64,000 bases of DNA, taken from positions 15,582-79,581 of the forward strand of contig DASXUL010000039.1 of NCBI GenBank assembly GCA_036504855.1. Reading direction: 5' to 3'. The notes below the pieces were generated by a model. The model saw only the letters and a list, made by a program, of their open reading frames with translations. It was not told where the DNA came from and did no database searches. How positions within the stretch are numbered: the stretch's first letter is position 1; every line of letters starts with the position of its first letter. Source of the DNA: Armatimonadota bacterium. GTDB taxonomy: Bacteria; Armatimonadota; DTGP01; JAKQQT01. The translations under genes were made by a program, and so were the position numbers. This document shows positions 6,869-45,155 of this stretch, in pieces.

Positions 6869-6883
6869 AGGTGCAGTATGTCG

Positions 6884-7036
6884 TTATGAGTCATCAGTCG
6901 TCAGTCGTCAGTCGTCAGTCGTCAGTCCGGATGCCGTCTGCCGCCGAGAACGCCTCAATCACCGTTCTGGGCATTCGGGCTGATGACTGACGACTGACGA
7001 CTCATGACCGACGACTCATGACCGACGACTGATGGC
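6884..7036. repeat. Intergenic palindromic element B. It consists of a tandem GTCAGTC/GTCATCA 7-mer array, a unique core and an inverted CGACTGA/TGACGAC array
   Basis: gtcatcagtcgtcagtcgtcagtcgtcagtcgtcagtccgg ... gggctgatgactgacgactgacgactcatgaccgacgactcatgaccgacgactgatgg. The right arm extends over the last six codons and the TGA stop of the DUF309 gene (7016-7036). Confidence 0.7.
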
Positions 7037-7363
7037 TATCCCATCCGGCGGGAGGGCCTGCGGAGCCGTTGCCAGCCATGCGCGGATGGGCGGGAGGCAC
7101 AGGCCTTCGTCATCGGCGGGATCGGCGGATTCGAGGTGGGCGAGGGCTCGGGCCCAGAGGACGCGGGCGCCGTACAGGTTGCCGCGAGAGGCGTGGTAAC
7201 AGCCGACGGCGAGCTGTATCAGGCCCTGCATGGTGTGGCTGCGGGTGAGGCGCCAGCGCGGTTCGAGCGCGTCGTGGGCGGCATGATACTCGCCCGCCTG
7301 GAAGAGGTTGAGGAAGAGCGCCACGTCTGGTTCTACGCTTGCCTGGGTTATGTCTTTGGGCAT
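7016..7363 (-). CDS. DUF309-family small protein (115 aa)
   Basis: The C-terminal 115 aa of a 393-aa ORF. The segment starting MPKDITQ contains FLNLFQAGEYHAAHDALEPRW, which is the DUF309 signature (FNxGxYxEAHExLExxW). The start was chosen at the ATG at 7363, and the upstream part of the long ORF was rejected as non-coding. Confidence 0.5.
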   Translation of the reverse strand: MPKDITQASVEPDVALFLNLFQAGEYHAAHDALEPRWRLTRSHTMQGLIQLAVGCYHASRGNLYGARVLWARALAHLESADPADDEGLCLPPIRAWLATAPQALPPDGIAISRRS

Positions 7364-8076: not shown

Positions 8077-8142
8077 CGAGGGGCCCTCGGGCTCTCGTTT
8101 TCCAAACAGGGAAGCGAGAGCCCGAGGGCCCCTCGTTTCTCC
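8077..8142 (+). terminator. Rho-independent-type terminator hairpin with a perfect 21-bp stem plus a T-rich tail, located between convergent genes
   Basis: cgaggggccctcgggctctcg (8077-8097) pairs with cgagagcccgagggcccctcg (8115-8135) and is followed by tttctcc. Confidence 0.6.
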
Positions 8143-10037: not shown

Positions 10038-10121
10038 TTTCGGTCTTTCCTCCTTTATGTGATCGGAGCCGGCAGCCGCCGCTTGCCGCCTGCCGCGTGG
10101 GGCGGCGCTGAGACGCGGGAA

Positions 10122-10250
10122 ACCACAGAGACATAAGGGCGCAAAGGGCGGATGAAAGGGATCGATTGGGGGGAATGCCGGGCCCAACACGATCCACCTC
10201 CCCATCTATACCCCTTTCATCCGCCCTTTGCGCCCTTGTTTCTCTGTGGT
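10122..10250. repeat. Long inverted repeat with about 39-bp arms (36/39 identical) separated by a 50-nt loop. It lies upstream of the S53 peptidase gene
   Basis: accacagagacataagggcgcaaagggcggatgaaaggg (10122-10160) matches the reverse complement of cccctttcatccgccctttgcgcccttgtttctctgtggt (10211-10250). The right arm overlaps the last codons of ORF 10217..10669. Confidence 0.6.
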
Positions 10251-10669
10251 TGCTCCGCCAGGCCTTCCAGCCACCGGCGGAAGGCGTAACGCGCCGCCGG
10301 GCGAGCCAGGGCGGCGAGGCCGGGGATGGGAAATCGGGTCCAAACCTGCAGGCGCGCTTCGCACCCGCCGGATGGCGTTGGCGTTAGCAGCAGACGGCCG
10401 CGCTGCGCTACGCCTAACGAGGCGCTTACCGAAAGCCAGACGACCGCGGAGGGGCTCCACGCCTTGACGAAAGTCATGCGCAGCCCTAGAGGCAGGAACA
10501 CGCGATAGCGCACCCATCCGTCACCGCGCGCCAGCACATCCACGCGGCGGACGAATGGGATGAGTTCCGGCTCCAACTCTACGCGCGAGACCAGAGCCGC
10601 CGCCAAGGCGGGCGGCGCCGGATTGCGGGCGCTCACGCACAGGATGAGGCATTTCGATCGGTCAGCCAT
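10217..10669 (-). CDS. Hypothetical protein (150 aa), possibly SRPBCC-like
   Basis: It is the only sizeable ORF between the peptidase gene and the divergent downstream gene, with no recognisable catalytic motif. Its 3' end is embedded in the arm of the long inverted repeat. Confidence 0.35.
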   Translation of the reverse strand: MADRSKCLILCVSARNPAPPALAAALVSRVELEPELIPFVRRVDVLARGDGWVRYRVFLPLGLRMTFVKAWSPSAVVWLSVSASLGVAQRGRLLLTPTPSGGCEARLQVWTRFPIPGLAALARPAARYAFRRWLEGLAEQPQRNKGAKGG

Positions 10670-10786: not shown

Positions 10787-11044
10787 ATGTTACGCATGAA
10801 CGCGGGCACGCGCCCATGCGGGGAGGGTTATCCGATGAAGCCCGCATTGTACGGCTGGAAGGACATGCTGCATGACTACACGCAGCTCCTTCTGAACGAC
10901 CGCTGGTATTGGTGCCGCCACTGCCGTCGTCCCGTTGAACACGTGCAGATCCCGCCTCCGGGCAGCCCCCCGGACGCGACCTCCCTAACGTGCCTCGATT
11001 GCGGCTACGCCGACCCGGAATTCCTGCACCTCCCTCGGATGTAA
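10787..11044 (+). CDS. Small zinc-ribbon protein (CxxC...CxxC), hypothetical
   Basis: An 85-aa ORF containing CRHCRRP ... CLDCGY. A start at the internal MKPALYGW is also possible. Confidence 0.4.
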   Translation: MLRMNAGTRPCGEGYPMKPALYGWKDMLHDYTQLLLNDRWYWCRHCRRPVEHVQIPPPGSPPDATSLTCLDCGYADPEFLHLPRM

Positions 11045-11163
11045 GCTGTCAGCCGTCAGCTGTCAGCCGTCAGCCCAGAGGGTCCGCCTGTGCAGACGCC
11101 GCGCTCTCTTGGGTCAGCCTTCCGGCTGATGACTGATGACTGAAGGCTGACGACTGACTACTG
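11045..11163. repeat. Intergenic palindromic element C, a compound of 7-mer arrays (GCTGTCA/GCCGTCA) plus a D/E-like unit
   Basis: gctgtcagccgtcagctgtcagccgtcagcc ... ggtcagccttccggctgatgactgatgactgaaggctgacgactgactac, located immediately after the stop codon of the preceding gene. Confidence 0.65.
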
Positions 11164-11237: not shown

Positions 11238-11335
11238 GCGGGCAGGGCAAGCCCAGCCCCTACCAGGTCGGGGTCTCCATCCACCCATCGGTGGACGGCC
11301 GGGCCTACCGGGTCGGGGCTGGGCTTGCCCTGCCC
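11238..11335 (-). terminator. Large GC-rich hairpin (perfect 21-bp stem, 54-nt loop with an inner palindrome) downstream of the pilin operon
   Basis: gggcagggcaagcccagcccc (11240-11260) pairs with ggggctgggcttgccctgccc (11315-11335), and the loop contains tccacccatcggtgga. It lies 59 nt beyond the 3' end of the PilX-like gene. Confidence 0.5.
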
Positions 11336-19913: not shown

Positions 19914-19923
19914 CCACACTCAC

Positions 19924-19988
19924 CACAAAGGCACAAAGGCGCGAAGACCGGATCTTGTTTCGGTCTTCGCGCCTTTGCGCCTTTGTGG
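19924..19988. terminator. Bidirectional terminator hairpin between convergent genes
   Basis: cacaaaggcgcgaagaccg / gatcttgtt / cggtcttcgcgcctttgtg form a perfect stem of at least 17 bp. Confidence 0.65.
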
Positions 19989-20001
19989 TAAGTTCGCCGA
20001 G

Positions 20002-25683: not shown

Positions 25684-25830
25684 ATCACGCTCCTTTGGCG
25701 GGCCAAGGTAAGGGCGGGGCCATTCCGCTCAACACGCCGACATGGAGCGCGGCGGCTTGCCCCCGCTTTCGCTCGGTCCACCCCCGCCCAAAGCGGCGGC
25801 AAGCCGCCGCATTCCATATCGGTTGCCGCG

Positions 25831-27880: not shown

Positions 27881-29008
27881 TCATAATCCTAGGATTTCGC
27901 GCCCCAACAGCGCCCAGCGGGTGATATCCGGGTCCGCGTTGAAGCCGGGTTCACCGGCGAGAACGGCGCGCTGGTGGGCGGCCAGAACGCATGCGCCTTC
28001 CTCGAAGATCCCGCGGATCGGATCGGGCAGCGGCTCGCGGCCGATGCAGGCTGGGCGCAGCGGGATCATCTCCCGCGTGTTGTGCTCGGTTCCGCCAGTT
28101 ACGATGAAGCCCGCATCTCGCAAGGCGGGAACGTACTCCTCCAGCACGAGGCGGCGGTTGCGCACTGGGATGAACTCCACGGCCCCGATATCCCAACGAT
28201 GGAGCCGCTCAGTCAACCCTTCAACCGGCGCCTCGAACGGGCAGATGGGGCTGGCGCCGTCCGCCAGCACCGGGTAGCACGGGATGCCCCTCATCGCCAG
28301 GACCAGCGCGCGGGCCTCCTCGAAGGAGACGAACCGTTCCTCCACGAAGGCCGGCCGCCCGGCCTTCATCAGATGCGTGCGGATGTCGTTTTGCACCGCC
28401 GCCGCGTCGTCTGGCGCCTTCGGCTCTGCTCCAAGAATCGCGTGCAGCGCTCCGGCCCGGGCGCCAGGCTCGGTAGAGGCGAACAGCGCTTCCTGAAACG
28501 CCTGCGCCACGTGGCGCTCCTGAAGGGTAACCGTATCGCGCGGGCAGCCGTGCCGGGTCACGACGCCGTCAACAATTGCCCCGTCGGTCAGGCCGGTGGG
28601 GAATCCCGCCGTCGTGAACACGGACTCCATGCGCGACACCATCGCGGAGATGCGGCGCGCGTCGCCCTCGCGGATGCCATTCAGCACGCGCGCCGGCTCC
28701 GGCTCGAAAGCGGCGGCGGGGGCGATTCCCTTCCCGCAGACGTAGACCTTGCCGGGGTTGCCGGGGTCGTTCAGCTTCACGCCATCGGCCGCCAGCCGCT
28801 CATCCCGCGCCACGATCTCCATCCCGAACAGCGGGAAGATGCCGGCGCGTTCGGCCCGTTCTGCAAATTCCGCGTAAACGGAGTAATCGTAGTAGTTGCT
28901 GGCCCCGAGCGCGCGGATGCCCTGTTCGGCCGCCAGGCGTACCGCCTGTTCCACGGAATCGAACGCCGAAAAGTTCGGCGGAAGGTGAATGTGGCTGTTT
29001 GAAGTCAT
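27881..29008 (-). CDS. PHP-domain (polymerase/histidinol-phosphatase-like) metal-dependent phosphoesterase
   Basis: The N-terminus SHIHLPPNFSAFDS matches the HxH...D PHP motif. The start codon lies inside the first unit of repeat D and has no Shine-Dalgarno sequence. Confidence 0.6.
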   Translation of the reverse strand: MTSNSHIHLPPNFSAFDSVEQAVRLAAEQGIRALGASNYYDYSVYAEFAERAERAGIFPLFGMEIVARDERLAADGVKLNDPGNPGKVYVCGKGIAPAAAFEPEPARVLNGIREGDARRISAMVSRMESVFTTAGFPTGLTDGAIVDGVVTRHGCPRDTVTLQERHVAQAFQEALFASTEPGARAGALHAILGAEPKAPDDAAAVQNDIRTHLMKAGRPAFVEERFVSFEEARALVLAMRGIPCYPVLADGASPICPFEAPVEGLTERLHRWDIGAVEFIPVRNRRLVLEEYVPALRDAGFIVTGGTEHNTREMIPLRPACIGREPLPDPIRGIFEEGACVLAAHQRAVLAGEPGFNADPDITRWALLGREILGL

Positions 29009-29073
29009 CAGTAATCAGTCGTCAGTCGTCAGTTGTCAGTTCGGACTCAGAACTGATGACTGACGACTGACAA
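29004..29073. repeat. Intra-operon palindromic element D of the 7-mer family (GTCATCA/GTCGTCA ... TGACGAC/TGATGAC)
   Basis: gtcatcagtaatcagtcgtcagtcgtcagttgtcagttcggactcagaactgatgactgacgactgacaac fills the entire 65-bp gap between the E2 stop and the PHP start. Confidence 0.65.
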
Positions 29074-30276
29074 CTACTTCTCCAGCATTTCCTTGAGTCG
29101 GGCCATGAAGCGGGCGGCGAGGAGGCCGTCGATGAGGCGGTGGTCGGCGGAGAGGGTGAGCGTCATCCGATGGCCGGCGCGGATGGCGCCGTCCTTCACG
29201 ACGATGTCCTCGCGAACGGCGCCCACGGCCAGGATGGCGGCTTCCGGCGGGTTGATGATCGCCGAGAACTCCTCAACGCCGAACATGCCGAGGTTGGTGA
29301 TGGTGAACGTGGCCTCGCCGGCGCCCTCCAGCCTGCCGGCGCGGGCGGCCTCCACAATGCGGCGCGTTTCGGCGGCGATGCCCTTCAGGTTTCGGCTGTC
29401 CGCGCCCCTCAGAACCGGCACGGTGAGCCCCTCATCCGTTCCCACGGCGATGCCGATATTCGCCTCGCGGAACGTGACGACGTCATCGCCGTCCACGCGG
29501 CCCCGGAACGCGGGGAACTCGGTAAGGAGGCGGGCACAGGCGTATGTGATGACGTCGTTCAGGCTGCACGGATACACCGCCTTCTCGGCGCGGTAGAACG
29601 CCATCAGCGGCCCCGCGTCGACGGTGAGCTTCACGTAGAAGTGCGGGATGGTCTGCTTGGACGCAACGAGGCCGCGGGCGATGGCCTTCCGCATACGGGT
29701 CATGGGAACGCGCTCGGCCCCCGGCTCCGGCGGTCGCGGGGATCGCGGCTCCGGCTCCGGCTCCGCCGCGGCCTCGTGGACCGCTGCTTCAACATCGGCC
29801 AGCAAGATCCGGCCGCGCGGGCCCGAGCCATGGGCGATGCTCTCCAGGGAAACGCCGCACTGGGCCGCGGCCTTCCGGGCCAGCGGCGAGGCGGCCACGC
29901 GCCCGGACCGCGCGGGTTCCACGGCCGGAGTCCGTTCCCGCGCCGGCGCCTCTCCGGCTACGTTCGGCGCAACGGCCTGCGGCGCTCCGGCGAGGAACGC
30001 GTCCGCCTCGGCGTCCGTCTCGGCCAGAACGCCAACCAGCGATTTCACCGGCAGCGTGACGCCGTCCTTCGCCACGATGCGGGCGAGGCGTCCGGAATCG
30101 GCCGCTTCCACCTCCAGCACGGCCTTGTCCGTTTCCACCTCGAAGAGGATGTCGCCCTTGCGGACCTGGTCCCCCTCGCGGGCCAGCCATCGGACGATGG
30201 TCCCCTCCTCCATGGATTGCCCCGGCTGGGGCATCAGTATCGCCACGGCGCCGCGCGTCTCGGACGGTTGGTTCAT
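29074..30276 (-). CDS. Dihydrolipoamide acyltransferase (E2 component of a 2-oxo acid dehydrogenase complex)
   Basis: A lipoyl domain (EVETDKAVLEVEA), an Ala/Pro-rich linker, an E3-binding domain, and a catalytic domain with DHRLIDG. The start was chosen at MNQPS (30276). The upstream ATG at 30333 would place a palindromic operator-like site in the coding sequence. Confidence 0.8.
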   Translation of the reverse strand: MNQPSETRGAVAILMPQPGQSMEEGTIVRWLAREGDQVRKGDILFEVETDKAVLEVEAADSGRLARIVAKDGVTLPVKSLVGVLAETDAEADAFLAGAPQAVAPNVAGEAPARERTPAVEPARSGRVAASPLARKAAAQCGVSLESIAHGSGPRGRILLADVEAAVHEAAAEPEPEPRSPRPPEPGAERVPMTRMRKAIARGLVASKQTIPHFYVKLTVDAGPLMAFYRAEKAVYPCSLNDVITYACARLLTEFPAFRGRVDGDDVVTFREANIGIAVGTDEGLTVPVLRGADSRNLKGIAAETRRIVEAARAGRLEGAGEATFTITNLGMFGVEEFSAIINPPEAAILAVGAVREDIVVKDGAIRAGHRMTLTLSADHRLIDGLLAARFMARLKEMLEK

Positions 30277-30341: not shown

Positions 30342-30347
30342 AGAGAA

Positions 30348-30418
30348 GTCATCAGTTGTCAGTCATCAGTTCTCAGTCCGGACTGACGACTGATGACTGA
30401 TGACTGATGACTGACGAC
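30348..30418. repeat. Palindromic element E of the 7-mer family, centred on cagtccggactg
   Basis: gtcatcagttgtcagtcatcagttctcagtcc | ggactgacgactgatgactgatgactgatgactgacgac. It ends 4 nt before the DeoR ATG. Confidence 0.7.
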
Positions 30419-30422
30419 TCCC

Positions 30423-31208
30423 ATGAGCCTGACCTCCGAACAACGACAGGAAGAGATACTTACGCGCGTGCTGGGTGTGGGGCACGTTGTGGTGAAGGCG
30501 TTGGCCGTGGACATGGGGGTTTCGGAGGCGACGGTGCGGCGCGACCTGCGGGCGCTGGCCGACGCGCGCAAGGTGGAACTGGTGTACGGCGGCGCCACGA
30601 TGCCGCGAACCGCGGACTTCACCGTGCTGGGGCGCGCGCGGCGCAATGTGGAGGCCAAGCGCATTGTGGGACGGCTGGCCGCCGGCCTGGTTCCCGACGG
30701 CGAGATGATGTACGTGGATTCCGGGACCACATGCTTCGAGATGCGCCGCCACCTGATGCAGAAGCGCGGCCTCTCCATCTTGCTGAACTCCACCCGCCTC
30801 GCCATGGAACTGAACGCCGGATCGGACGCCAGCATCGTGCTCCTCGGCGGGCACTACCGGCCTGAGCGCATGGATACCGTGGGCCCGCTGGCGGTGGCGG
30901 CCATCGACCAACTGCGCGGCTACGTGGCCTTCATCGGCGCCGACGGGCTCGACCCGGATTTCGGGGTGACCGCCGACGATATCCAGACCGCGTTCCTCTA
31001 TCAGCACGTGTTAAGGAACGCGCGCGAGACCATTCTGCTGGCGGACCATACCAAATTCCTCTGCCCATCGCTGTATCGCATCTGCACGTGGGACGCCATC
31101 TCCCGCGTGGTCACCGATGTGCGCCCCGACGACGAGTGGGTGGAGTTTCTCAACAAGAACGGCATCGAGCTGATACACGAGATGAACACGGAAGCGCCCG
31201 GCTGCTAG
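30423..31208 (+). CDS. DeoR/GlpR-family transcriptional regulator
   Basis: An N-terminal HTH ([34 protein letters not shown]) and a C-terminal DeoR sugar-phosphate-binding domain. Confidence 0.85.
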
Positions 31209-31231: not shown

Positions 31232-33724
31232 ATGCCCAAATCCCTGATGATCCATCCCACCGATGTCCGCCAGAGCGGATTCGTTGAGTTTTCTCCCATC
31301 CCCATGAACCAGTACGCCGGAACGCTGGCGGAGGAGGCGGCGCGATATGGCGCCGAGGCGCTGGCGCGCATCCACCGCGATATGGCGGTCATCCGCGCGT
31401 TCGAGAGCATGCTCAACGAGGTGAAACTCCAGGGCGCCTACCGGGGCGTGGAGTACAACCACAAGGGCCCGGCGCACCTCAGCATCGGCCAGGAGGCCAG
31501 CGCCGTGGGCCAGGCCTTCCTGCTGGGCGTGGACGACCACATCTTCGGCAGCCACCGCAGCCATGGCGAGATCCTGGCGAAGGGCCTCTCCGCTATCGCC
31601 AAGCTGGATGACGCCGCGCTGATGGGCATCATGGAGTCCTATCTGGATGGGGCCACGTTGCGCGTGGTGGAACGCTCGCGCCCGGATGACCGGGGCATGG
31701 CGGCCAACCCGGTGCAGGCCCTGGCCATCGACTTCCTCCTCTACGGCACGCTGGCCGAGATCTTCGGGCGCGAGGCAGGGTTCAACCGGGGCATGGGCGG
31801 TTCCATGCACGCCTTCTTCACGCCATTCGGCGTCTACCCCAACAACGCTATCGTGGGCGGAAGCGGCGACATCTCGGTGGGCGCCGCGATGTTCAAGCGC
31901 ATCAACCACAAGCCCGGCATCGTCATCTGCAACATCGGCGATTCCTCCGCTGCCTGCGGCCCGGTGTGGGAGGGCCTGGTGCTGGCGAACATGGACCAGT
32001 ACAAGACCCTCTGGGACGAGGCGCATCGGGGCGGCCTGCCGCTGATCATGAACTTCGTTAACAACTTCTATGGCATGGGCGGCCAGCCTGTGGGCGAAAC
32101 CGGCGGCTTCGGCGTGCTGGCGCGCCTGGGCGCCGGACTCTCGCCCACGCAGATGCACGCGGAACGCATCGACGGCTACAACCCGCTGGCCGTGGTGGAC
32201 GCCGTGCGGCGGAAGCGCGACATCATCGAAAGCGGTGACGGCCCGGTCCTGCTGGACACGGTTACCTACCGCTTCAGCGGCCACAGCCCGTCTGACGCAT
32301 CATCCTACCGCGAGAAGTCCGAGGTGGAGGAATGGCAGAGCGTGGACTCGCTGGTGACTTACCGGCGGTCGCTCGAGGAAGCCGGCCTCGCCTCGGAGGC
32401 CGACTTCGAGTGCGTCCAGGAGACCATCAACGCCGCCATCCTCCGCGCCTACAAGAAGGCCATTGACCTGGAGGTCTCGCCGCGCGCCGACCTCTACGCG
32501 GTGGGCAGCCTGCTGGAAACCACCATGCTCAGCAACGTGCGCGTTGAGAGCATGGACCCGACGCGCAAGCCCGAAGTGTTGATGCCGAAGGAGGCCAACC
32601 CGCGCGTTCAGCAGCTTGCCAAGCGCAGCCGCGGCGCGTTTGACGCGGAAGGAAAGCCGCTTCCGAAGAGCAAGTGCATTGGCATCCGTGACGCGCTGTT
32701 CGAGAGCATCCTGGACGCTTTCTACACGGACCCCACGCTGGTTGCCTACGGCGAGGAAAACCGCGATTGGGGCGGCGCTTTCGCCGTCTACCGAGGCCTC
32801 ACCGAGGCGCTTCCCTACCACCGTCTGTTCAACACGCCCATCGCCGAGGGCGCCATTGCCGGCTCCTCCGTCGGTTACGCCCTGGAGGGCGGCCGCGCGC
32901 TGGTGGAGCTGATGTATTGCGACTTCATGGGCCGCGCGGGGGATGAGATCTTCAACCAGATGGCCAAGTGGCAGAGCATGAGCGGCGGCCTGCTGAAAAT
33001 GCCGGTGGTGATGCGCGTCTCCGTGGGCAGCAAGTACGGCGCGCAGCACAGCCAGGATTGGACCAGCATGCCGGCCCATATCCCCGGCCTGAAAGTGGTC
33101 TTCCCCGCGACGCCCTACGACGCCAAGGGCCTGATGAACGCCGCGCTCACCGGTTGCGACCCCGTGATCTTCTTCGAGAGCCAGCGCATCTACGACCAGC
33201 CGGAGCTGTTCCACCCCGGCGGCGTGCCGGCCGGCTACTATGAGATCCCCATCGGCGCGCCAGACGTGAAGAAGCCAGGCTCCGACCTGACCATCCTCAC
33301 CATCGGCGCCGCGCTCTATCGCGCCCTGGAAGCCGCCAAGATCCTGGAGGCTGAGTACGGCATCTCCTGCGAGGTGATCGACGCGCGCAGCATCGTGCCC
33401 TTCGACTATGCGCCCGTGTTGGAGAGCGTGCGGAAGACCCACAAGGTCCTGCTGGTTTCGGACGCCTGCGAGCGCGGCTCGTTCCTGCAGACCATGGCCG
33501 CGAAGATCGGCCAGTTTGCCTTCGACGATCTGGACGCGCCGCCCGTGGTGTTGGGCGCCCGCAACTGGATCACCCCGGCCGACGAAGTGGAAGGCGCCTT
33601 CTTCCCGTTCCCCTGCGATTTCCTGGACGCCGTGCACGAGCATATTCAGCCGCTGCCGGGCTACCAGACGAAGCGGGTCTCCGGCATGGAGGAAATGCTG
33701 CGGAGGAGCCGCCTGGGTATCTGA
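31232..33724 (+). CDS. 2-oxo acid dehydrogenase E1 component with fused alpha and beta subunits (TPP-dependent)
   Basis: A start at 31232 (MPKSLMIHP). The alpha part has GxGxxSxGxxHE-type motifs ([12 protein letters not shown] ... [10 protein letters not shown]) and the TPP-binding [13 protein letters not shown]. The beta part has the transketolase-like C-terminus. Total length is 830 aa. Confidence 0.85.
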
Positions 33725-34173
33725 AGAGGGATCGGGGCCGGCGGAGCGAATCGGGGTCCGGATTCCGGATTCCGGATTCGCGACCATGAGCGGGTGGAGG
33801 ATGTTGGTTGGGAGGAAAGGCCGGGCCCCGAGGGGCCGGCTCGGCGGACCAACGGCGCCTTCGCGCTGTGATGCCGCCGTCCACTCACGTCACCCCGAGC
33901 GAAGCGAGAGGTCTCGGCCTGACGCGTCTTTCCTGGCAACGTTTCAAGCACCCGAGCCGGCGTTTGCCTGGGTGCTTGCTCCGCAGCGCCAAACTGCAGG
34001 CCAGGCCGAGACCTCTCGCTTCGCTCGAGGTGACGTGGAGAGACGCGAGGGCGCGAAGGGCCCTTGGCCTTCCGAGCCGGCCCCTCGGGGCCAGGCTCTA
34101 CCCGCCAACTACTAGCATCCTCGCGCATCCGGTCGCGAATCCGGACTCCGGAATCCGGATCCCGATCCCCTTC
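33725..34173. repeat. Three-layer nested palindromic composite (about 449 bp) that fills the gap between convergent genes
   Basis: Outer inverted repeat: gggatcggg...tccggattccggattccggattcgcgacc (33728-33787) against ggtcgcgaatccggactccggaatccggatcccgatcccc (34126-34170). Middle inverted repeat: gccccgaggggccggctcgg (33828-33847) against ccgagccggcccctcggggc (34072-34091). Inner 153-bp element: 33886-34038. Confidence 0.7.
33886..34038. mobile_element. MITE-like 153-bp palindromic element (copy 1) with 36-bp terminal inverted repeats and a central hairpin
   Basis: Terminal repeats cacgtcaccccgagcgaagcgagaggtctcggcctg / caggccgagacctctcgcttcgctcgaggtgacgtgg. The central stem is agcacccgagcc...tgggtgct. 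It is homologous to 44973..45125. Confidence 0.6.
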
Positions 34174-35178
34174 TCACAGATCCTTCGCCATCACGCAGAA
34201 GCGGCGGGTTTCCTGGAAGCCGGCTTCCGCGTAGAGCTTCAGCGTTTTGTCGTCGGACCAGAGGAAGAAGGCGATCTGCTTGCCGGCGGTGCGCATGCGC
34301 TCCAGCGTTTCGAAGGTGAGCCAGGCGCCGATGCCGCGGCCCCGCACGCGGGGGCTGGTGCCCACCGGGCCGAAGCGCTCGCCGTTGTAGTGGCAGAAGC
34401 CCACAACCGTGTTGGTGGCGTTGTCCCACGCGAAGATCAGGCGGTCCGGCTTGCTGCGTCCAGCATGGATGTCCAGGGCGGCGTCGCGCACCCAACGCTC
34501 CCAATCGCCGGGGAAATCCTCCACCATGAACTCGTGGATGAAGGGCACGAGGTCCGGGTTGTACTCCTTGATGACCACGGACTCTTCCTTCGGCGCCCGC
34601 AGGTCCGCGATCTTCTGGCGCAGCCATTCCGGCCGGCGCACGCGATCCAACTGCGTCTGTGCGGCCAGCGGGCGGTAGACTTCCTTGTAGCCGCGCGAGA
34701 GCAGGAAGGGGATGGCGTCGCGGTAGCGGTCGATATCCACGCCGGGCCAGAAGTAGTTGGGGGCGTACGGCGAGATCATCGCCCGTTTGGCTCCCTCAAC
34801 GCGCAGATACTGCTCCGCCTGATCGAAGAGCTGGTTCCCGTAGCCGCGCCGGCGCACGCGCTCATCTACTCCGAAGAGGGTGATGTAACCCCGGTCCGAG
34901 TCCATCTCCGAATGCGGCAGGGGGATCTTGCGGTGGATGGCCACGCAGAAGCCGCGCACGGCCCCGTCCGCAAGCTTCCCGTTCACGCCCTCCAGGTGCT
35001 CGCGCAGCACGAAGGTTCCGTCCGGTTCCCAGTTCTGGTCCCACAGGATGTTGATGGCCAGTTTTTCGCTATCCATGGCCTCGGTTGGGAACACGTTCCG
35101 TACCGACATCACCAGCGAGCTGAATGGGCTTGCGCCCGACCATGGCCAAACCGTGTAACTGCGTTCCGCTCCACTCAT
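34174..35178 (-). CDS. GNAT-family acetyltransferase (tandem GNAT-like domains)
   Basis: An internal ATG at 35178 has GGAG 8 nt upstream. Motifs RRRGYGNQLF and RGRGIGAWL are Q/RxxGxG/A acetyl-CoA loops. The 99 aa upstream in the ORF were rejected. Confidence 0.6.
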   Translation of the reverse strand: MSGAERSYTVWPWSGASPFSSLVMSVRNVFPTEAMDSEKLAINILWDQNWEPDGTFVLREHLEGVNGKLADGAVRGFCVAIHRKIPLPHSEMDSDRGYITLFGVDERVRRRGYGNQLFDQAEQYLRVEGAKRAMISPYAPNYFWPGVDIDRYRDAIPFLLSRGYKEVYRPLAAQTQLDRVRRPEWLRQKIADLRAPKEESVVIKEYNPDLVPFIHEFMVEDFPGDWERWVRDAALDIHAGRSKPDRLIFAWDNATNTVVGFCHYNGERFGPVGTSPRVRGRGIGAWLTFETLERMRTAGKQIAFFLWSDDKTLKLYAEAGFQETRRFCVMAKDL

Positions 35179-38498: not shown

Positions 38499-38707
38499 GA
38501 TGCGCCTCCGAGATGGATACCGGGCTGGCGGGGTCCGGAGTCCGGCTTCCAACGATGCTGTGATATCGAATGGCAGTAGAATATGAGTGGAAAAGATCGT
38601 GTCGGGTCAAGTTGACCGCGTGTACGGACGGTCCTTTTCACACGCAAGAGACCGCAGTTCCCGCGTATCGGCAGGGTACGTTGCCGAAGACTATCGAGGT
38701 TGACTCA

Positions 38708-41253: not shown

Positions 41254-42108
41254 TCAGTTCTGTTGGAGGATCTCCCGCAGGCGCTTCAAGGCCTTCTGCT
41301 GAAGGCGAGAGACGTGCATCTGCGAAATGCTCAGGCGTTGGGCCACCTCGGTCTGCGACATATCGCTAAAGAAGCGAAGCCGGATAATGGCCTGTTCGCG
41401 TTCGTCCAGGCTGCGGATCGCCTCGCGGAGGTCGTCATTCGAATTGATGTCGGCCAGGGAGGCATCTTCCGCCCCGATGAACTCCGCCAGAGTCATCGGG
41501 CCGGAGTCAGACTGGGAGTCGAGCCGGGTGTCGAGGCTGATGGTTTCGTAGGCGTTGCCCAGTTCGATGGCCTCCAGCGTCTCTTCCTCGCTGGCGTGTA
41601 TGTGGTCGGCGATCTCGCCCACGGTTGGGCTCCGCCCGAGTCGTTGGGTGAGCGCCTCAACCGCCTTGCCCGCGGCGAGGTTGAGTTCCTGCAGGCGGCG
41701 AGGGACCTTGAGGTTCCACGCTTTGTCGCGGAAGTGACGTTTGATCTCGCCCACGATGGTGGGGGCCGCATAGGTGCTGAACTTATTGCCGCGCAATGGA
41801 TCGAACCGGTCGACGGCGTTGATGAGGCCGATCGTGCCAACCTGCACGAGGTCTTCCAGCGGCTCGCCCCGGTTGGCGAATTTGCCGGCCAGGAAGCGTA
41901 CCAGGTTCAGGTGAACCATCACCAGTTGGTCGCGCAAGGCTGCGTCGCGGGTTCGCTGGTAGCGCTCGAACAAACCTTCCACCTCGGCCGCGGATGCGGC
42001 CCGGGTCTGGGCCGGCGCCGGCGTTTCCTTGGCTGGCTGATCTTCGGTGGAGCGCTCGCTTCCGTCCTCGGCCGCGGCTGGCGGCGTTGGCGCGTTCCCT
42101 TCGATCAT
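41254..42108 (-). CDS. RNA polymerase sigma factor, SigB/SigF/SigG (group 3) subfamily
   Basis: Region 2 (DLVQVGTIGLINAVDRFDPLRGNKFSTYAAPTIVGEIKR) and region 4 (QTEVAQRLSISQMHVSRLQQKALKRLR). The start overlaps the RsbW stop (ATGA). Confidence 0.85.
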   Translation of the reverse strand: MIEGNAPTPPAAAEDGSERSTEDQPAKETPAPAQTRAASAAEVEGLFERYQRTRDAALRDQLVMVHLNLVRFLAGKFANRGEPLEDLVQVGTIGLINAVDRFDPLRGNKFSTYAAPTIVGEIKRHFRDKAWNLKVPRRLQELNLAAGKAVEALTQRLGRSPTVGEIADHIHASEEETLEAIELGNAYETISLDTRLDSQSDSGPMTLAEFIGAEDASLADINSNDDLREAIRSLDEREQAIIRLRFFSDMSQTEVAQRLSISQMHVSRLQQKALKRLREILQQN

Positions 42109-42536
42109 TGCACGCGCACCTTTTTGTTCAGGCGAACGGTGGTCCCCTCCTCGGCGTCTTCCTGGACCTCCACGGAGTCAACGAGGATTTCCATGAGGAG
42201 AGCGCCGATGTTCTCGGTATCTACGGCGGGTTCCGGCTCCACAGCCGGGCGGCCGGCCTCTCCGTTCGCCTTGTAGTTCACCGAAATCGTGAGGGCATCT
42301 GGCTGGATGTCGCAGTAGATGCGGATATCGGTGCGCGAAGACTCGCCGCCGGAGCGGTCAATGGCGGAGGTGCAGGCCTCCCCGACGGCGAGGCGCAGGT
42401 CTTCCACCTCGTCATAGCTGAAGTTGAGGCGGCTGGCCACGCCAAGAATCGCCAGGCGGGCCACACCGACGTATTCCGCGCGGCACGGGATGCTCAGCGA
42501 GACGACGGCCGCTTCAGGGGGAGAGGGTAGGCTCAC
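42105..42536 (-). CDS. Anti-sigma factor / serine protein kinase (RsbW/SpoIIAB-like, HATPase_c)
   Basis: It is 143 aa, lies between a STAS antagonist and a group-3 sigma factor, and has a GHKL-type N-box/G-box pattern. Confidence 0.75.
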   Translation of the reverse strand: MSLPSPPEAAVVSLSIPCRAEYVGVARLAILGVASRLNFSYDEVEDLRLAVGEACTSAIDRSGGESSRTDIRIYCDIQPDALTISVNYKANGEAGRPAVEPEPAVDTENIGALLMEILVDSVEVQEDAEEGTTVRLNKKVRVQ

Positions 42537-42889
42537 GCGGAGGGTCCTTTCACGGCTTGAACAGCGTCGGCAACGGTAGGATGCACGTTGAAGATGCGGG
42601 AAAGCCCGGTGACATCCAGAATGCGCGCGATTCGGGGGTTGGGAGCGGCAACGATGAGGTCACCTTCGGCCTCTCGAGCCCGCTTCAAGGCGCCGATGAG
42701 CACGCCCAGCCCGCTGCTGTCCATGTAGGCGACATCGGCGAGGTCCACCACAAGGCGGATGGCTCCATCGTCCATGCGGCGATGTATCTCCTCCCGCAAT
42801 TTGGGCGCGGTGTAAACGTCCACCTCACCCCGTACACTGATTACGCTCACGCCATTGTTCGTTGGCTGCGCACTCACGCTGAAATCCAT
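42533..42889 (-). CDS. Anti-sigma-factor antagonist (STAS domain, RsbV/SpoIIAA-like)
   Basis: It contains ISVRGEVDVYTAPKLREEI ... DLADVAYMDSSGLGVLIGA, which has the conserved phospho-Ser of the DSSGLG motif. Confidence 0.85.
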   Translation of the reverse strand: MDFSVSAQPTNNGVSVISVRGEVDVYTAPKLREEIHRRMDDGAIRLVVDLADVAYMDSSGLGVLIGALKRAREAEGDLIVAAPNPRIARILDVTGLSRIFNVHPTVADAVQAVKGPSA

Positions 42890-42957
42890 TTTTGGGAGTA
42901 ACTCCTGCTAACGGTACTGCTGTCCGAGTCCACTATAGCGTGGACGCCGGCAGGCGA

Positions 42958-43425
42958 CTAAGCGTCGATCGCTTCGTCCACCTCGGCGTTGAGCTCGGAT
43001 CTCTTGTCGTCATAGGCCTCGACGCCCGCGTTCAACGCGGCGTCCAGGCGTTGGCGGGTTTCGCCAAGGGTCTGCTTGCTCTTACTTACCCACTCGTCCA
43101 CAGAGGTCCGAGCCTCCGTGATGACGTCGCTCGCTTTGCCGGTGACAGACTCATAGGCGCCGCTGACCTTCTCGCGCGCCGTATCCACGGCGTGCGCGCT
43201 TTTGGCGGAGGCGGCGGCCACAGCATCGCCCGCTCTATCGCGTAGCGTCGCTCCTGCTTCCGCAATGGTCTGACGCGACTCCTCGCCGGTTTGGGGAGCG
43301 AATAGGAGGGCGAGGGCGGCTCCGATGGCCGCGCCGGCCACGAGGCCGGCCACGAACTGGGTGGCGTCGAACCCGCCGCCGCTGTCATCGGTGGGGGCGA
43401 ATTCGAACTGATCTTCCGGGTGCAT
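42958..43425 (-). CDS. YtxH-domain general-stress-type protein
   Basis: The N-terminal membrane helix GLVAGAAIGAALALLFAPQTGEESR is followed by a low-complexity helical region typical of YtxH/DUF948. Confidence 0.7.
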   Translation of the reverse strand: MHPEDQFEFAPTDDSGGGFDATQFVAGLVAGAAIGAALALLFAPQTGEESRQTIAEAGATLRDRAGDAVAAASAKSAHAVDTAREKVSGAYESVTGKASDVITEARTSVDEWVSKSKQTLGETRQRLDAALNAGVEAYDDKRSELNAEVDEAIDA

Positions 43426-43481
43426 TCGGTTGCTAGCCTCCGTTGGGTTGGCGGTCAGCTCGCGAGCTAGCGAGCTAAGGC

Positions 43482-43509
43482 ATTATACAGACTTTACCAA
43501 TTCCGTCAC
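43482..43509 (-). promoter_or_regulatory. Candidate sigma70-type promoter for the YtxH gene (-35 GTGACG, 16-nt spacer, -10 TATAAT), followed by a 12-bp perfect palindrome AGCTCGCGAGCT
   Basis: On the minus strand the sequence reads gtgacggaattggtaaagtctgtataat. The palindrome is at 43458-43469, and GGAGG lies 12 nt before the ATG. Confidence 0.4.
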
Positions 43510-43533
43510 GAACCCGGCAACGCGGAAACCATC

Positions 43534-44616
43534 CTAGCCGCGCTCTACACGGCCCACGATGCCGCCCCCCAGCACGGAATCCCCCTCATAGAAGACCGCG
43601 CTCTGTCCTGGCGTGATGGCGCGCTGCGGCTGATCGAACTCCCCGAGCACGCCGCATTCGTCCTCAACAACGCGGCATGGCCTGTCCGCCATGTTGTAGC
43701 GGATCTTCGCGGTAACGCCGCCGACCGCATCGGGCGGACCCGATCGGGAAACCCAGTTCATCCCTTCAACGCGAAACCGCCGCGCATACAGAGAAGCGCC
43801 GAGCCCGATGACCACCTGGTTGCTCTCTGGCCGCACGTCCACCACGAAATGAGCCTCCGGCCCATGCGCGCCGATGCCTCGGCGCTGCCCGCGCGTGAAC
43901 TGGGCGATGCCTTCGTGCGATCCCACCACCGTGCCCGCCTCGTCAACCACCTCGCCCACCGCCTGCGTTTCCGGCGCGTGCTGGCGCAGGAAGGCGCGGT
44001 AGTCGTTGCCGGGGATGAAGCAGATCTCCTGGCTATCCGGCTTGGCCGCGGTGGGCAGGCCCAGTTCGCGCGCGAGCCGGCGCGTGTCTTCCTTGCTAGG
44101 CAGGTCTCCCAGCGGAAACAGGGTGTGCGCCAACTGGTCCTGGGTCAGATTGTACAACGCGTACGTCTGATCCTTCTTGCTGGCAGCGGCGCGCAGGAGG
44201 CGGTACCGGCCCGATCCGCCATCGCGGTCCACGCGAGCGTAATGTCCGGTTGCCACGAAATCGGCTCCCCATTGTTTTGCCCGATTCAGCAACGCCTCAA
44301 ACTTTACGAACTGGTTGCAGCGCACGCATGGGTTCGGGGTGCGGCCGGCGGCGTACTCGCGGATGAAGTCGTTGATGACGCGATCCTGAAAGAGGTCACG
44401 GAAATTGGTGACGTGGTAGCGGATGCCGAGACGCTGGGCGACGCGGCGCGCGTCGTCCACGGCGGTCAGCCCGCAGCACCCCTGTTCGCCGCCTTCCACG
44501 CCTTCCGGCCAGAGCTGCATGGTGACGCCGATCACCTCGTGACCCTGCTCCACCAGCATCGCCGCCGCCACCGAACTATCCACCCCGCCGCTCATTGCGC
44601 AAACTACCCGCGCCAT
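43534..44616 (-). CDS. mnmA: tRNA-specific 2-thiouridylase MnmA
   Basis: The PP-loop SGGVDSS, the catalytic Cys motifs (NPCVRCN, EICFIPG), and full-length collinearity with MnmA/TrmU. Confidence 0.9.
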   Translation of the reverse strand: MARVVCAMSGGVDSSVAAAMLVEQGHEVIGVTMQLWPEGVEGGEQGCCGLTAVDDARRVAQRLGIRYHVTNFRDLFQDRVINDFIREYAAGRTPNPCVRCNQFVKFEALLNRAKQWGADFVATGHYARVDRDGGSGRYRLLRAAASKKDQTYALYNLTQDQLAHTLFPLGDLPSKEDTRRLARELGLPTAAKPDSQEICFIPGNDYRAFLRQHAPETQAVGEVVDEAGTVVGSHEGIAQFTRGQRRGIGAHGPEAHFVVDVRPESNQVVIGLGASLYARRFRVEGMNWVSRSGPPDAVGGVTAKIRYNMADRPCRVVEDECGVLGEFDQPQRAITPGQSAVFYEGDSVLGGGIVGRVERG

Positions 44617-44649
44617 ATGTGACTTCCTTGCTCAGTTAGGTCGACCGCT

Positions 44650-44934
44650 TCATATCTCCGTGGCCAAGTCCCGCCATGTTGGGTTCGAGGACTCGATCAG
44701 TGCGATCTTCTTGTCCCGGGACCACGCCTTGATCTGTTTCTCCCGCTCGATGGCGGCGGAGATGCTGTCGTACTCCTCATGGTACGCCAGTCGCGTGACA
44801 TTGTACCTGGCGGTGAAGCCGGGTGTGGCCTTTGCCTTGTGTTCGCAGACGCGCCGCTGGAGGTCATTCGTCACGCCGACATACAGGGTTCGCGACACGC
44901 TCGCCATGATGTAGACCGAAAACGGCCCCTTCAT
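44650..44934 (-). CDS. GIY-YIG nuclease superfamily small protein (UPF0213-like)
   Basis: It contains FSVYIMASVSRTLYVGVTNDLQRRVCEHK, which has the GIY...YIG-type motif and the conserved Arg and Glu. The protein is 94 aa. Confidence 0.8.
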   Translation of the reverse strand: MKGPFSVYIMASVSRTLYVGVTNDLQRRVCEHKAKATPGFTARYNVTRLAYHEEYDSISAAIEREKQIKAWSRDKKIALIESSNPTWRDLATEI

Positions 44935-44972
44935 GAACCACCCTCCACCACCAAGAACCTAACCTCTCGCCC

Positions 44973-45125
44973 CACGTCACGTCGAGCGCAGCGAGAGGTC
45001 TCGGCCTGACGGTTCTACGAGAGATGCGTCACAAGCACCCGGGCAAAGGTCTGCATGGGTGCTCCTTACCACGCATCAAGCAAACGGCCAGGCCGAGACC
45101 TCTCGCTGCGCTCGAGGTGACGTGG
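44973..45125. mobile_element. MITE-like 153-bp palindromic element (copy 2), 39 bp upstream of the GIY-YIG gene start
   Basis: Terminal repeats cacgtcacgtcgagcgcagcgagaggtctcggcctg / caggccgagacctctcgctgcgctcgaggtgacgtgg. The central stem is agcacccgggc...atgggtgct. It is the same length as copy 1 and has the same terminal repeats. Confidence 0.65.
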
Positions 45126-45155
45126 GAGGCCACGCTTCCACCATTTCAGCAGCCT

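What the first reader, a model, noticed from the sequence alone, without database searches (positions are those of the whole stretch)
33725..34173. A 449-bp three-layer nested palindrome fills the gap between two convergent genes
The whole intergenic space between the E1 gene stop (33724) and the GNAT gene stop (34174) is one composite of three concentric inverted-repeat pairs. The outer pair has arms of about 45 to 60 bp containing CCGGATTCCGGATTCCGGATTCGCGACC. The middle pair has 20-bp arms (GCCCCGAGGGGCCGGCTCGG). The inner layer is a 153-bp element with 36-bp terminal inverted repeats and its own central hairpin. This architecture is what successive insertions of hairpin-forming MITE-like elements into one another would produce. 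Alternatively, the region could fold as a very large cruciform or RNA structure acting as a bidirectional terminator. Either way it is far more elaborate than an ordinary terminator.
Basis: seen in the sequence. Interest (0 to 1): 0.8.

Follow-up and report, generated by a model that had tools for sequence, protein, structure and literature searches.

The report
Nested hairpin repeats between convergent genes
The 449-bp gap between two convergent genes really is a three-layer palindrome, and its core is a pair of REP-like hairpin repeats of the kind linked to small GIY-YIG "Ssn" single-strand DNA nucleases, so it is an elaborate example of a known class of repeat DNA and not a new kind of regulator.

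Summary
Window 33725-34173 is the whole gap between the E1 stop and the GNAT stop. It folds into one long hairpin on either strand (RNA -319 and -331 kcal/mol, z -16 and -18). Its arms are discrete complementary blocks (110/119 positions paired) separated by linkers at chance level (34/77).

The inner 152-bp element is an independent repeat. A second copy lies at 44971-45126, without the outer layers, 36 nt upstream of a 94-aa GIY-YIG gene. That protein is 48% identical to the Neisseria gene that is flanked by exact NTS repeats (SsnA). Each arm of the inner element carries a 27-nt unit, CGTCA-CCTC-GAGCGNAGCGA-GAGG-TCTC. This unit is a CGTC-tagged REP / Ssn-related motif variant that also occurs in Chloroflexota, Acidobacteriota, Armatimonadota and other phyla, and it flanked all four GIY-YIG homologues I fetched.

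The outer arms are (TCCGGAT)n heptamer arrays. They resemble in design, but not in sequence, five other heptamer hairpins in the window. The middle layer is unique here.

Nesting of REP dimers inside longer palindromes is already described. There is no U-tract terminator. No relative keeps the E1-GNAT junction, so the order of insertions cannot be proved. I rate this a new variant of a known kind, of moderate interest.

The parts
31232..33724 (+). E1 gene (2-oxoisovalerate dehydrogenase E1 alpha/beta fusion, 830 aa as called). Left boundary of the gap.
   Evidence: Pfam E1_dh, Transket_pyr and Transketolase_C. P0001 is 100% identical. Gene call.
33750..33785 (.). Outer layer, left arm: GTCCGGA TTCCGGA TTCCGGA TTCGCGA CC, that is heptamer units each holding a 6-bp palindrome. 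Pairs with 34131-34166.
   Evidence: TRF period 7 at 33757-33779. 34/36 complementary..
33786..33819 (.). Linker 1, left half. Its partner is 34097-34130. Complementarity is not above chance.
   Evidence: 18/34 in the global alignment. Best alignment 65% against 47% in shuffles, p = 0.08.
33820..33866 (.). Middle layer, left arm. It includes the exact 20-mer GCCCCGAGGGGCCGGCTCGG, which itself holds the small palindrome GGCCCCGAGGGGCC. Pairs with 34050-34096.
   Evidence: 41/47 complementary. The 20-mer is found only as this inverted pair in the window. No other copy in the window, L125 or other loci.
33886..34037 (.). Inner element, 152 bp: an inverted dimer of 27-nt CGTC-tagged REP / Ssn-related-motif-like units with a 92-nt structured spacer.
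   Evidence: 36-nt arms, 97% complementary. ssDNA fold -62 and -65 kcal/mol, z -11. Second copy in the window.
33889..33915 (+). Unit 1 of the dimer: GTCACCCCGAGCGAAGCGAGAGGTCTC, preceded by C, giving a CGTC tag.
   Evidence: Pattern GTCANNNNGAGCGNAGCGANNNNTCTC gives 4 matches in the window against 0.11 expected.
33946..33977 (.). Central hairpin of the spacer: AAGCACCC, a 16-nt loop, GGGTGCTT. It is conserved in the second copy.
   Evidence: 8/8 paired. Invariant columns in the alignment of both copies on both strands.
34008..34034 (-). Unit 2 of the dimer: GTCACCTCGAGCGAAGCGAGAGGTCTC on the minus strand.
   Evidence: The predicted ssDNA fold of the unit is a 5-bp stem, GA/GA, GC and a GAA triloop, -4.6 kcal/mol, not better than shuffles.
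34050..34096 (.). Middle layer, right arm.
34131..34166 (.). Outer layer, right arm: GGTCGCGAATCCGGACTCCGGAATCCGGATCCCG.
   Evidence: TRF period 7 at 34137-34159..
34174..35109 (-). Double-GNAT acetyltransferase gene (311 aa as called). Right boundary of the gap.
   Evidence: Pfam Acetyltransf_1, _7 and _10. Gene call.
44971..45126 (.). Second copy of the inner element, with units at 44976-45002 (+) and 45095-45121 (-). It is not embedded in any larger palindrome. It lies between the stop of a 175-aa gene and the start of the GIY-YIG gene.
   Evidence: 44-nt arms, 93% complementary. Flanks not complementary, z -0.6. Both arms carry C at the N of GCGNAGC, where copy 1 carries A in both arms.
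44650..44934 (-). 94-aa single-domain GIY-YIG gene, a homologue of Neisseria SsnA. Its start lies 36 nt from the second copy of the element.
   Evidence: Pfam GIY-YIG, 5.9e-15. 48% identity over 90 aa, E 4e-30, to the N. gonorrhoeae gene flanked by 7 exact NTS repeats.

Best explanation
The gap is a stack of hairpin-forming repeat DNA, not a purpose-built regulatory structure.

**Core (33886-34037).** The core is an inverted dimer of a 27-nt CGTC-tagged palindromic unit, CGTCA-CCTC-GA-GCGNAGC-GA-GAGG-TCTCGG, around a small conserved hairpin. This unit is a variant of the CGTC-REP / NTS / Ssn-related-motif class. Members of that class travel with genes for Ssn, a single-domain GIY-YIG nuclease of about 94 aa that in Neisseria cuts only single-stranded DNA next to the hairpin. 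The genome encodes such a gene 11 kb away, with the only other copy of the dimer at its 5' end. These points are shown.

**Surrounding layers.** The dimer sits in the roughly 31-nt loop of a GC-rich hairpin with 47-nt arms. That hairpin sits exactly in the middle (34 nt on each side) of a hairpin whose arms are (TCCGGAT)n heptamer arrays. Heptamer-array arms are a design that recurs in this genome.

**Inferred origin.** The layers arose at the DNA level, in one of two ways. Either hairpin repeats inserted successively into the single-stranded apex of an already extruded hairpin, or a composite element was copied whole. Within-element homogenisation then kept each pair of arms alike.

**Inferred consequence.** Both convergent transcripts would end in a very stable stem that can block 3' exonucleases and hinder read-through. 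That is a by-product, as is argued for REPs.
For: - **Layered blocks against chance-level linkers:** 110/119 against 34/77, p = 9e-14 (alignment).
- **Independent second copy** of the inner element without the outer layers.
- **Spread of the arm motif:** GAGCGNAGCGAGAGGTCTC is present in 86 metagenome loci and in 32 GTDB loci from Chloroflexota, Acidobacteriota, Armatimonadota, Bacteroidota, Thermodesulfobacteriota and others. It usually occurs as an inverted dimer with a 15-20 nt spacer.
- **Covariation in the unit:** the 5-bp stem around GAGCGNAGCGA covaries (ACCTC/GAGGT, ATTCC/GGAAT, ATTCT/AGAAT, ATCCC/GGGAT, ATGCC/GGCAT).
- **Identity of the GIY-YIG gene:** 94 aa, single domain. It is 48% identical end to end to the gonococcal gene flanked by 7 exact NTS repeats arranged as inverted pairs.
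- **Units next to homologues:** homologues of the window protein have the unit in their flanks in 4 of 4 loci fetched, and as read-through peptides in called proteins.
- **Turnover:** tandem copy number of 145-nt dimers varies (1, 4, at least 3) between Thermoflexales strains that carry an identical protein.
- **Nesting elsewhere:** 5 of 9 dimers from other organisms (6 of 11 counting the two window copies) also have complementary flanks, z > 3. Published work reports REP dimers regularly inserted within longer palindromes (PMC3733652).
- **Literature on the class:** Ssn/NTS/SRM (PMC11893778) and CGTC REPs, with dRS3 = CGTC-1.
Against: - The published degenerate SRM pattern does not match the unit.
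- A single unit folds no better than shuffles with standard DNA parameters.
- Only 4 units (2 dimers) occur in 74 kb, so high copy number in this genome is not shown.
- The middle and outer layers have no second copy, so their status as separate elements rests on the block pattern and on analogy with other heptamer hairpins, which use a different heptamer.
- No empty site is available.
- The two copies of the inner element differ substantially in their spacers (76% over 99 nt), so neither is a recent copy of the other.
Confidence: 0.6

Rival explanations
1. The whole 449 bp is one composite mobile element with multi-part terminal inverted repeats. It inserted once between the two genes and was not built in place by three insertions.
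For: In other organisms the dimer plus an outer inverted repeat recurs as a unit at different sites. For example, TGATGAACCGGTAAAAAGTCC...dimer...GGACTTTTTACGAAACCATCA occurs in L012, L022, L028 and L095. H. neapolitanus CGTC-1 dimers are all found inside one 41-bp palindrome whose empty form is absent.
Against: There is no second copy of the outer or middle arms in 74 kb, while the inner element does occur alone. Arm identity differs between layers (94%, 87%, 97%) and the linkers are at chance level.
Confidence: 0.2
2. The structure is kept by selection as a bidirectional terminator, insulator or RNA 3'-end stabiliser for the convergent E1 and GNAT transcripts.
For: It lies exactly between two convergent stop codons and fills the gap to within 3 nt of each. 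It forms extremely stable stems on both strands. Mismatch types are symmetric, 13 against 13, as a two-way device would need. REPs lie mostly downstream of genes and between convergent or co-directional ORFs.
Against: There is no T-run after the stem on either strand and no terminator-like hit in the gap. An ordinary stem-plus-T-run hairpin exists elsewhere in the window (8077-8135), so the organism has a simpler solution. The same inner element and similar heptamer hairpins also sit upstream of start codons and in a divergent gap (30344-30429; 44971-45126). The junction is not conserved in relatives.
Confidence: 0.12
3. The palindrome arose in one step by fold-back (template-switch) duplication of one half of the gap and has since decayed.
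For: All layers share nearly the same symmetry axis (coordinate sums 67916 to 67923).
Against: Uniform decay cannot give 92% pairing in the blocks and 44% in the linkers (p = 9e-14). The inner element exists on its own elsewhere.
Confidence: 0.05
4. The palindrome is an assembly artefact (a chimeric fold-back contig).
For: This is a metagenome assembly. A Logan contig of another run breaks inside the second copy of the element, which shows that such hairpins disturb assemblers.
Against: The arms are imperfect, with indels, and both flanking genes are complete and in frame up to their stops. The JGI contig is identical. Artefactual fold-backs give perfect inverted copies of real sequence, including coding sequence.
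Confidence: 0.03

Closest known systems
NTS / Ssn-related motifs (SRM) with the Ssn GIY-YIG ssDNA nuclease (Chenal et al. 2025, PMC11893778)
   Same: - Oriented hairpin repeat with a 5' CGTCA tag and a TC... tail. NTS is CGTCATTCCCGCGMAVGCGGGAATCYRG. The unit here is CGTCACCTCGAGCGAAGCGAGAGGTCTCGG.
- The repeats occur as inverted pairs.
- A copy lies next to a 94-aa single-domain GIY-YIG gene that is 48% identical to the NTS-flanked gonococcal gene.
   Different: - The stem and loop layout differs: a 5-bp stem, tandem GA, GC and a GNA triloop, against an 8-bp stem and a 4-nt loop.
- The published SRM search pattern does not match.
- The host phylum is Armatimonadota.
- Only one side of the gene carries a repeat.
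- Copy number in this genome is unknown.
- The nuclease activity is untested.
CGTC-tagged REPs, including Neisseria dRS3 and Rickettsia RPE-4/6 (Di Nocera et al. 2013, PMC3733652)
   Same: - CGTC/TGTC tag, short palindrome and unpaired tail.
- Mostly arranged as inverted dimers with spacers of 20-100 bp that can themselves be structured.
- Located between convergent or co-directional genes.
- Some dimers are regularly inserted within longer palindromes.
   Different: - The described families have 8-9 bp stems with A-T in the first two positions, loops of 4-5 nt and a CCA tail. Here the second stem pair is C-G, the loop region is GAGCGNAGCGA and the tail is CTCGG.
- Three concentric layers spanning 449 bp go beyond the 41-55 bp host palindromes described.
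- Armatimonadota, Chloroflexota and Acidobacteriota were not among the five phyla listed.
REPINs and RAYT transposases (Bertels and Rainey 2011, PMC3116915)
   Same: Two short palindromic units in inverted orientation form a long hairpin that behaves as the unit of propagation. The arms of one dimer share states that differ between dimers (A/A in copy 1 and C/C in copy 2).
   Different: The tag is CGTC, not GTAG. The associated gene is a GIY-YIG nuclease, not a Y1 (HUH) transposase. No RAYT was looked for beyond the ORFs scanned.
Heptamer tandem repeats: TAACTGA repeats (MacGregor 2015, PMC4679880) and cyanobacterial STRR (own knowledge)
   Same: The outer arms are tandem heptamers in an intergenic gap. 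The window's commoner arrays, (GACTGAY)n, differ from TAACTGA by one base and, like TAACTGA, abut start codons.
   Different: Here the arrays come as inverted pairs that form hairpins. The heptamer of the finding (TCCGGAT) is different, is nearly self-complementary and lies at 3' ends.
Bidirectional intrinsic terminators between convergent genes (own knowledge)
   Same: A stable stem lies between two convergent stop codons and is usable on both strands.
   Different: There are no flanking A/U tracts. The stem is about ten times longer than usual and is made of repeat-family sequence.

Membership tests
Ssn / SRM (NTS-like) system | A single-domain GIY-YIG protein of about 94 aa, homologous to Neisseria SsnA, is encoded in the genome. 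| tested here: met
   The gene at 44650-44934(-) encodes 94 aa with only a GIY-YIG domain. It shows 48% identity over 90 aa, E 4e-30, to the N. gonorrhoeae ORF flanked by 7 exact NTS repeats.
Ssn / SRM (NTS-like) system | [quoted passage not shown] | not testable with these tools
   No CDD search is available. NCBIfam and PDB searches gave only weak generic GIY-YIG hits.
Ssn / SRM (NTS-like) system | Hairpin repeats flank the ssn gene. | tested here: met
   The dimer at 44971-45126 lies 36 nt upstream of the start. The downstream gap is only 33 nt and holds no repeat. All 4 homologue loci fetched carry units within 200 nt.
Ssn / SRM (NTS-like) system | The repeat matches the published degenerate SRM pattern HGTCWYN(0-2)YYVSBRHN(0-5)WNVSBRGN(0-2)RNCYNB. 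| tested here: not met
   None of the 4 units matches. The window has 2 unrelated matches against 0.8 expected. The NTS consensus does match.
Ssn / SRM (NTS-like) system | The repeat is present in many copies in the genome. | tested here: inconclusive
   There are 4 units in 64 kb against 0.11 expected, and none in a further 10 kb.
Ssn / SRM (NTS-like) system | The protein binds the repeat and cuts next to it, only as ssDNA and only on one strand. | not testable with these tools
   This needs a biochemical assay.
CGTC-tagged REPs | A terminal CGTC (or TGTC/CCTC) tag lies next to a short palindrome that is followed by an unpaired tail. | tested here: met
   All four units read CGTCA + ACCYC...GAGGT + CTCGG. 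The stem covaries across loci.
CGTC-tagged REPs | Stem of 8-9 bp with A-T in the first two positions, a loop of 4-5 nt and a tail near CCA. | tested here: not met
   Only the first pair is A-T. There are 5 Watson-Crick pairs, then GA/GA, GC and a 3-nt loop. The tail is CTCGG.
CGTC-tagged REPs | Units are mostly arranged as inverted dimers with 20-100 bp spacers, between convergent or co-directional genes. | tested here: met
   Both copies are inverted dimers with 92-nt spacers. One lies in a convergent gap and one in a co-directional gap.
MITE (transposase-mobilised miniature element) | Terminal inverted repeats matching those of an autonomous IS element, and target-site duplications. | tested here: not met
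   No direct repeats flank either copy (sequence). No transposase is related to the arms. The associated gene is a GIY-YIG nuclease.
Intrinsic (bidirectional) terminator | A GC-rich stem followed by a U-tract on the transcribed strand or strands. | tested here: not met
   There is no terminator-like site in 33725-34173 and no T-run at either end.
Known RNA families (Rfam 15) | A match to a curated covariance model. | tested here: not met
   No hit at gathering score in the window or in 15 loci carrying the motif. Only chance-level hits at E <= 5.

The most novel reading that the evidence does not exclude
Palindromes in this genome grow from the inside. Ssn-linked CGTC-type dimers, and perhaps the heptamer hairpins, home into the single-stranded apex of hairpins that are already extruded. 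On this reading the E1-GNAT gap is a fossil record of three successive apex insertions. That would make the small GIY-YIG ssDNA nuclease the mobilising enzyme that CGTC REPs were said to lack, and would give a target rule (hairpin loops) for it.
Probability: 0.2. Interest if true: 0.65.

Novelty: new variant of a known kind. Interest (0 to 1): 0.35.

Why it matters
**What it extends.** It carries the CGTC-REP / Ssn-related-motif class into Armatimonadota. Through the shared arm motif, it also reaches Chloroflexota, Acidobacteriota and other soil phyla. The unit variant (GAGCGNAGCGA core) is missed by the published search pattern, so current counts of Ssn-associated repeats are probably too low.

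**What the locus offers.** It is an unusually clean example of hairpin repeats nested three deep, exactly on one axis. It could be used to test whether such repeats target the apex of existing hairpins, and whether Ssn nucleases are involved.

**What it does not do.** It does not reveal a new type of regulator. For annotation, it explains a large gap, several spurious ORFs and contig breaks.

Tried and rejected
- **Rfam and tRNA.** Rfam at gathering score on the whole window, at E <= 5 on the gap, and on 15 motif-bearing loci gave nothing meaningful. ARAGORN found no tRNA or tmRNA.
- **GTDB scan for a full dimer.** The pattern GCGAGAGGTCTC-N77-107-GAGACCTCTCGC gave 0 hits. The long-spacer form with two identical arms therefore seems specific to this lineage.
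- **Orthologous loci.** E1 relatives at 79-81% aa identity keep E2-DeoR-E1 but not the GNAT neighbour, so no empty site was found. An exact look-up of the GNAT protein found only the source contig.
- **More of the same genome.** A further 10 kb of the contig held one heptamer array and no more dimers.
- **GIY-YIG genes near orphan motifs.** There were none in the 118 loci found through the motif. This is expected for dispersed repeats, so I tested the association from the gene side instead.
- **Published SRM pattern.** No match.
- **Stability of a single unit.** It is not better than shuffles, so the unit-level stem rests on covariation only. The known stability of d(GCGAAGC) minihairpins is my own recollection and was not tested.
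- **Strand bias of wobble-type mismatches**, as a sign of an RNA function: none, 13 against 13.
- **Literature search by sequence string**: only primers were found. The Ssn paper's supplements are not held.
- **Fold-back duplication and assembly artefact** were both considered and rejected. The reasons are heterogeneous arm identity, imperfect arms and intact flanking genes.

Full report
**What is there.** The window comes from an Armatimonadota metagenome-assembled genome. The E1 protein is 100% identical to one that NCBI names as from an Armatimonadota bacterium, and JGI contig Ga0376481_000516 matches window 21232-47934 exactly. The E1 gene encodes a 2-oxoisovalerate dehydrogenase alpha/beta fusion and ends at 33724. 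A double-GNAT gene on the other strand ends at 34174. The 449 bp between them fold into one long hairpin on either strand: -319 and -331 kcal/mol as RNA, z -16 and -18, with no shuffle as stable.

**The layers are real.** Aligning the left half against the reverse complement of the right half gives four discrete complementary blocks:
- A, 33750-33785: 34/36 paired
- B, 33820-33866: 41/47
- C, 33886-33921: 35/36
- a central 8-bp stem: 8/8

The linkers between them pair no better than chance (18/34, 7/19, 9/24). Blocks against linkers gives Fisher p = 9e-14. One evenly decayed palindrome is excluded.

**The inner layer.** The 152-bp inner element has a second copy at 44971-45126 with the same 36-44 nt arms and the same central hairpin (AAGCACCC...GGGTGCTT). 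The spacer arms differ, and the flanks are not complementary. The N of GCGNAGC is A in both arms of copy 1 and C in both arms of copy 2, so the arms of each dimer evolve together.

Each arm holds a 27-nt unit, GTCA-NNNN-GAGCGNAGCGA-NNNN-TCTC. There are four matches in the window against 0.11 expected.

The core of the unit was found in 86 metagenome loci and 32 GTDB genomes. These include Chloroflexota, Acidobacteriota, two Armatimonadota, Bacteroidota, Thermodesulfobacteriota and Coriobacteriia. A few hits lie in coding sequence and are probably chance. The usual form is tGTCACCYCGAGCGNAGCGAGAGGTCTC, then 15-20 nt, then GAGATTCCTCGCTNCGCTCGGAATGACA. Across loci the five bases on each side of GAGCGNAGCGA covary (ACCTC/GAGGT, ATTCC/GGAAT, ATTCT/AGAAT, ATCCC/GGGAT, ATGCC/GGCAT). 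Each unit is therefore a small hairpin or dyad in its own right, and the elements are inverted dimers of it. No Rfam family covers it.

**Link to a GIY-YIG nuclease.** The second copy ends 36 nt upstream of a 94-aa gene whose only domain is GIY-YIG.

Homologues of this protein often carry N- or C-terminal extensions that are translations of the unit (for example RDSSQPRND, SFASLRMT, VILRS).

I fetched four homologue loci, chosen only for contig length. All four have the unit within 200 nt of the gene:
- a Burkholderiales locus has dimers on both sides
- one lineage has a tandem array of CCGTCACGCTGAGCGCAGCGA... with 2 to at least 4 copies depending on the strain
- Thermoflexales strains with an identical protein carry 1, 4 or at least 3 tandem copies of a 145-nt dimer

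Several units have extra sequence inside their loops.

A tblastn search against plasmid records hit two Neisseria gonorrhoeae chromosomes filed as plasmids. The matched ORF is 48% identical over 90 aa (E 4e-30) and is surrounded by seven exact copies of CGTCATTCCCGCGMAVGCGGGAATCYRG, arranged as inverted pairs about 53 nt apart. That is the NTS/ssnA arrangement described by Chenal et al. 2025. SsnA is a 94-aa single-domain GIY-YIG enzyme that binds the NTS hairpin and cuts next to it. It acts only on single-stranded DNA and only on one strand. Thousands of homologues are flanked by 'Ssn-related motifs' (PMC11893778).

The same repeats were classified earlier as CGTC-tagged REPs, with dRS3 as CGTC-1. 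That class is mostly arranged as inverted dimers with 20-100 bp spacers, lies between convergent or co-directional genes, and 'apparently lacks a dedicated transposase' (PMC3733652).

The unit here shares the CGTCA tag, the hairpin and the TC... tail. Its stem and loop layout is different, and the published degenerate SRM pattern does not match it. A single unit is also not predicted to fold better than shuffles with standard DNA parameters. I therefore file the inner layer as a variant of the CGTC-REP / SRM class, not as a canonical member.

**The outer and middle layers.** The outer arms are (TCCGGAT)n arrays, each unit holding a 6-bp palindrome.

Hairpins with heptamer-array arms fill five other gaps in the window: 5515-5653, 6883-7037, 11044-11163, 28994-29078 and 30344-30429. 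Those use (AGTCRTC)n/(GAYGACT)n and form a dispersed family of their own. A relative has yet another heptamer hairpin at a different site (L002 4742-4815), and a second relative has none.

The outer layer thus resembles a recurrent design of this lineage. However, its own sequence recurs only as a two-unit trace at 38529-38550.

The middle arm, with its exact 20-mer and the internal palindrome GGCCCCGAGGGGCC, is unique in 74 kb.

**How the nesting arose.** The inner element splits the roughly 31 non-complementary bases between the middle arms into 19 + 12. The middle-plus-inner part splits the 68 bases between the outer arms into 34 + 34. Such centring is expected if each newcomer entered the apex of an existing hairpin, or if the composite was copied as a whole.

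Nesting also occurs elsewhere:
- Five of nine dimers from other organisms (six of eleven counting the two window copies) have flanks that are complementary beyond chance.
- One outer repeat, TGATGAACCGGTAAAAAGTCC..., recurs with its dimer at several sites.
- Di Nocera et al. report REP dimers regularly inserted within longer palindromes.

The closest relatives (about 80% aa identity in E1) have different genes downstream of E1. No empty site exists, so the order of events cannot be proved. I put nested or composite repeat DNA at about 0.8 combined, with stepwise in-place insertion (0.6) favoured over a single composite insertion (0.2).

**Function.** Nothing marks the gap as an intrinsic terminator. 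There is no T-run at either end and no terminator-like site. An ordinary stem-plus-T-run hairpin exists elsewhere in the window (8077-8135). Wobble-type mismatches are equal on both strands, 13 against 13.

The inner element and the heptamer hairpins also occur upstream of start codons and in a divergent gap, which argues against a dedicated 3'-end role. Any transcript entering the gap would still form a very stable stem. Effects on mRNA decay or read-through, as argued for REPs, are therefore plausible side effects (inference).

**Verdict.** The 'nested hairpin elements' reading is partly supported. The core is identified as a dimer of a CGTC-REP / Ssn-related-motif variant, with its GIY-YIG gene nearby. 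The three-deep nesting and the motif variant are new details of a known kind. Interest is moderate.

Noticed in passing
window 5515-5653, 6883-7037, 11044-11163, 28994-29078, 30344-30429; L125 4028-4069: A dispersed family of hairpins whose arms are tandem heptamers, (AGTCRTC)n paired with (GAYGACT)n. They fill whole intergenic gaps. The (GACTGAY)n arm runs up to or into start codons: the DeoR ATG at 30423, and an ATG at 29008-29006 on the minus strand that lies inside a heptamer. The unit differs by one base from the TAACTGA repeats described upstream of start codons in Beggiatoaceae, cyanobacteria and Bacteroidetes (PMC4679880). The two hairpins flanking the E2 gene are 83% alike over 86 nt.
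   Followed up: partly
L002 7320-7340, 8050-8090, 9290-9400: In a relative (80% aa identity in E1), the last ~110 nt of the E1 gene, or its final ~25 nt, are repeated downstream. The repeats bracket small gene pairs of 83+139 aa and 72+107 aa. This looks like cassettes inserted one after another at the 3' end of E1, each duplicating the target.
   Followed up: no
L135-L138, positions 2292-2889: Thermoflexales strains with an identical 96-aa GIY-YIG protein carry 1, 4, at least 3 and at least 3 tandem copies of a 145-nt dimer of the same unit family just downstream of the gene. This is strain-level copy-number change. Several units have 25-35 nt inserted inside their loops.
   Followed up: partly
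window 10121-10251, 19918-19993, 11240-11335, 25737-25822: Four further long hairpins of other sequence families: 40-nt arms at 95%; arms made of CACAAAGG octamers; 46-nt arms; and 33-nt arms. With the others this gives about one long hairpin per 5 kb in the first 45 kb of the window and almost none after.
   Followed up: no
window 45000 (end of Logan contig SRR11794808_37779, L091): A contig from an independent sequencing run is 100% identical to window 41650-45000 and stops inside the left arm of the second copy of the inner element. This shows that the hairpin or repeat breaks assemblies, and that the same organism occurs in a second sample.
   Followed up: no
L039, L070, L069, L045 and similar metagenome loci: A different element carries one copy of GAGCGGAGCGAGAGGTCTC followed by a GC-rich hairpin. 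It is flanked on both sides by direct (GAACCAA)n heptamer arrays and is sometimes tandemly repeated at 92-99 nt. So heptamer arrays accompany this motif in unrelated bacteria as well.
   Followed up: no
search_dna_similar plasmid collection, NZ_CP119142.1 and NZ_CP119140.1: Two 2.17-Mb Neisseria gonorrhoeae chromosomes are filed as plasmids in the PLSDB-derived collection. This was useful here but is a mislabelling.
   Followed up: no
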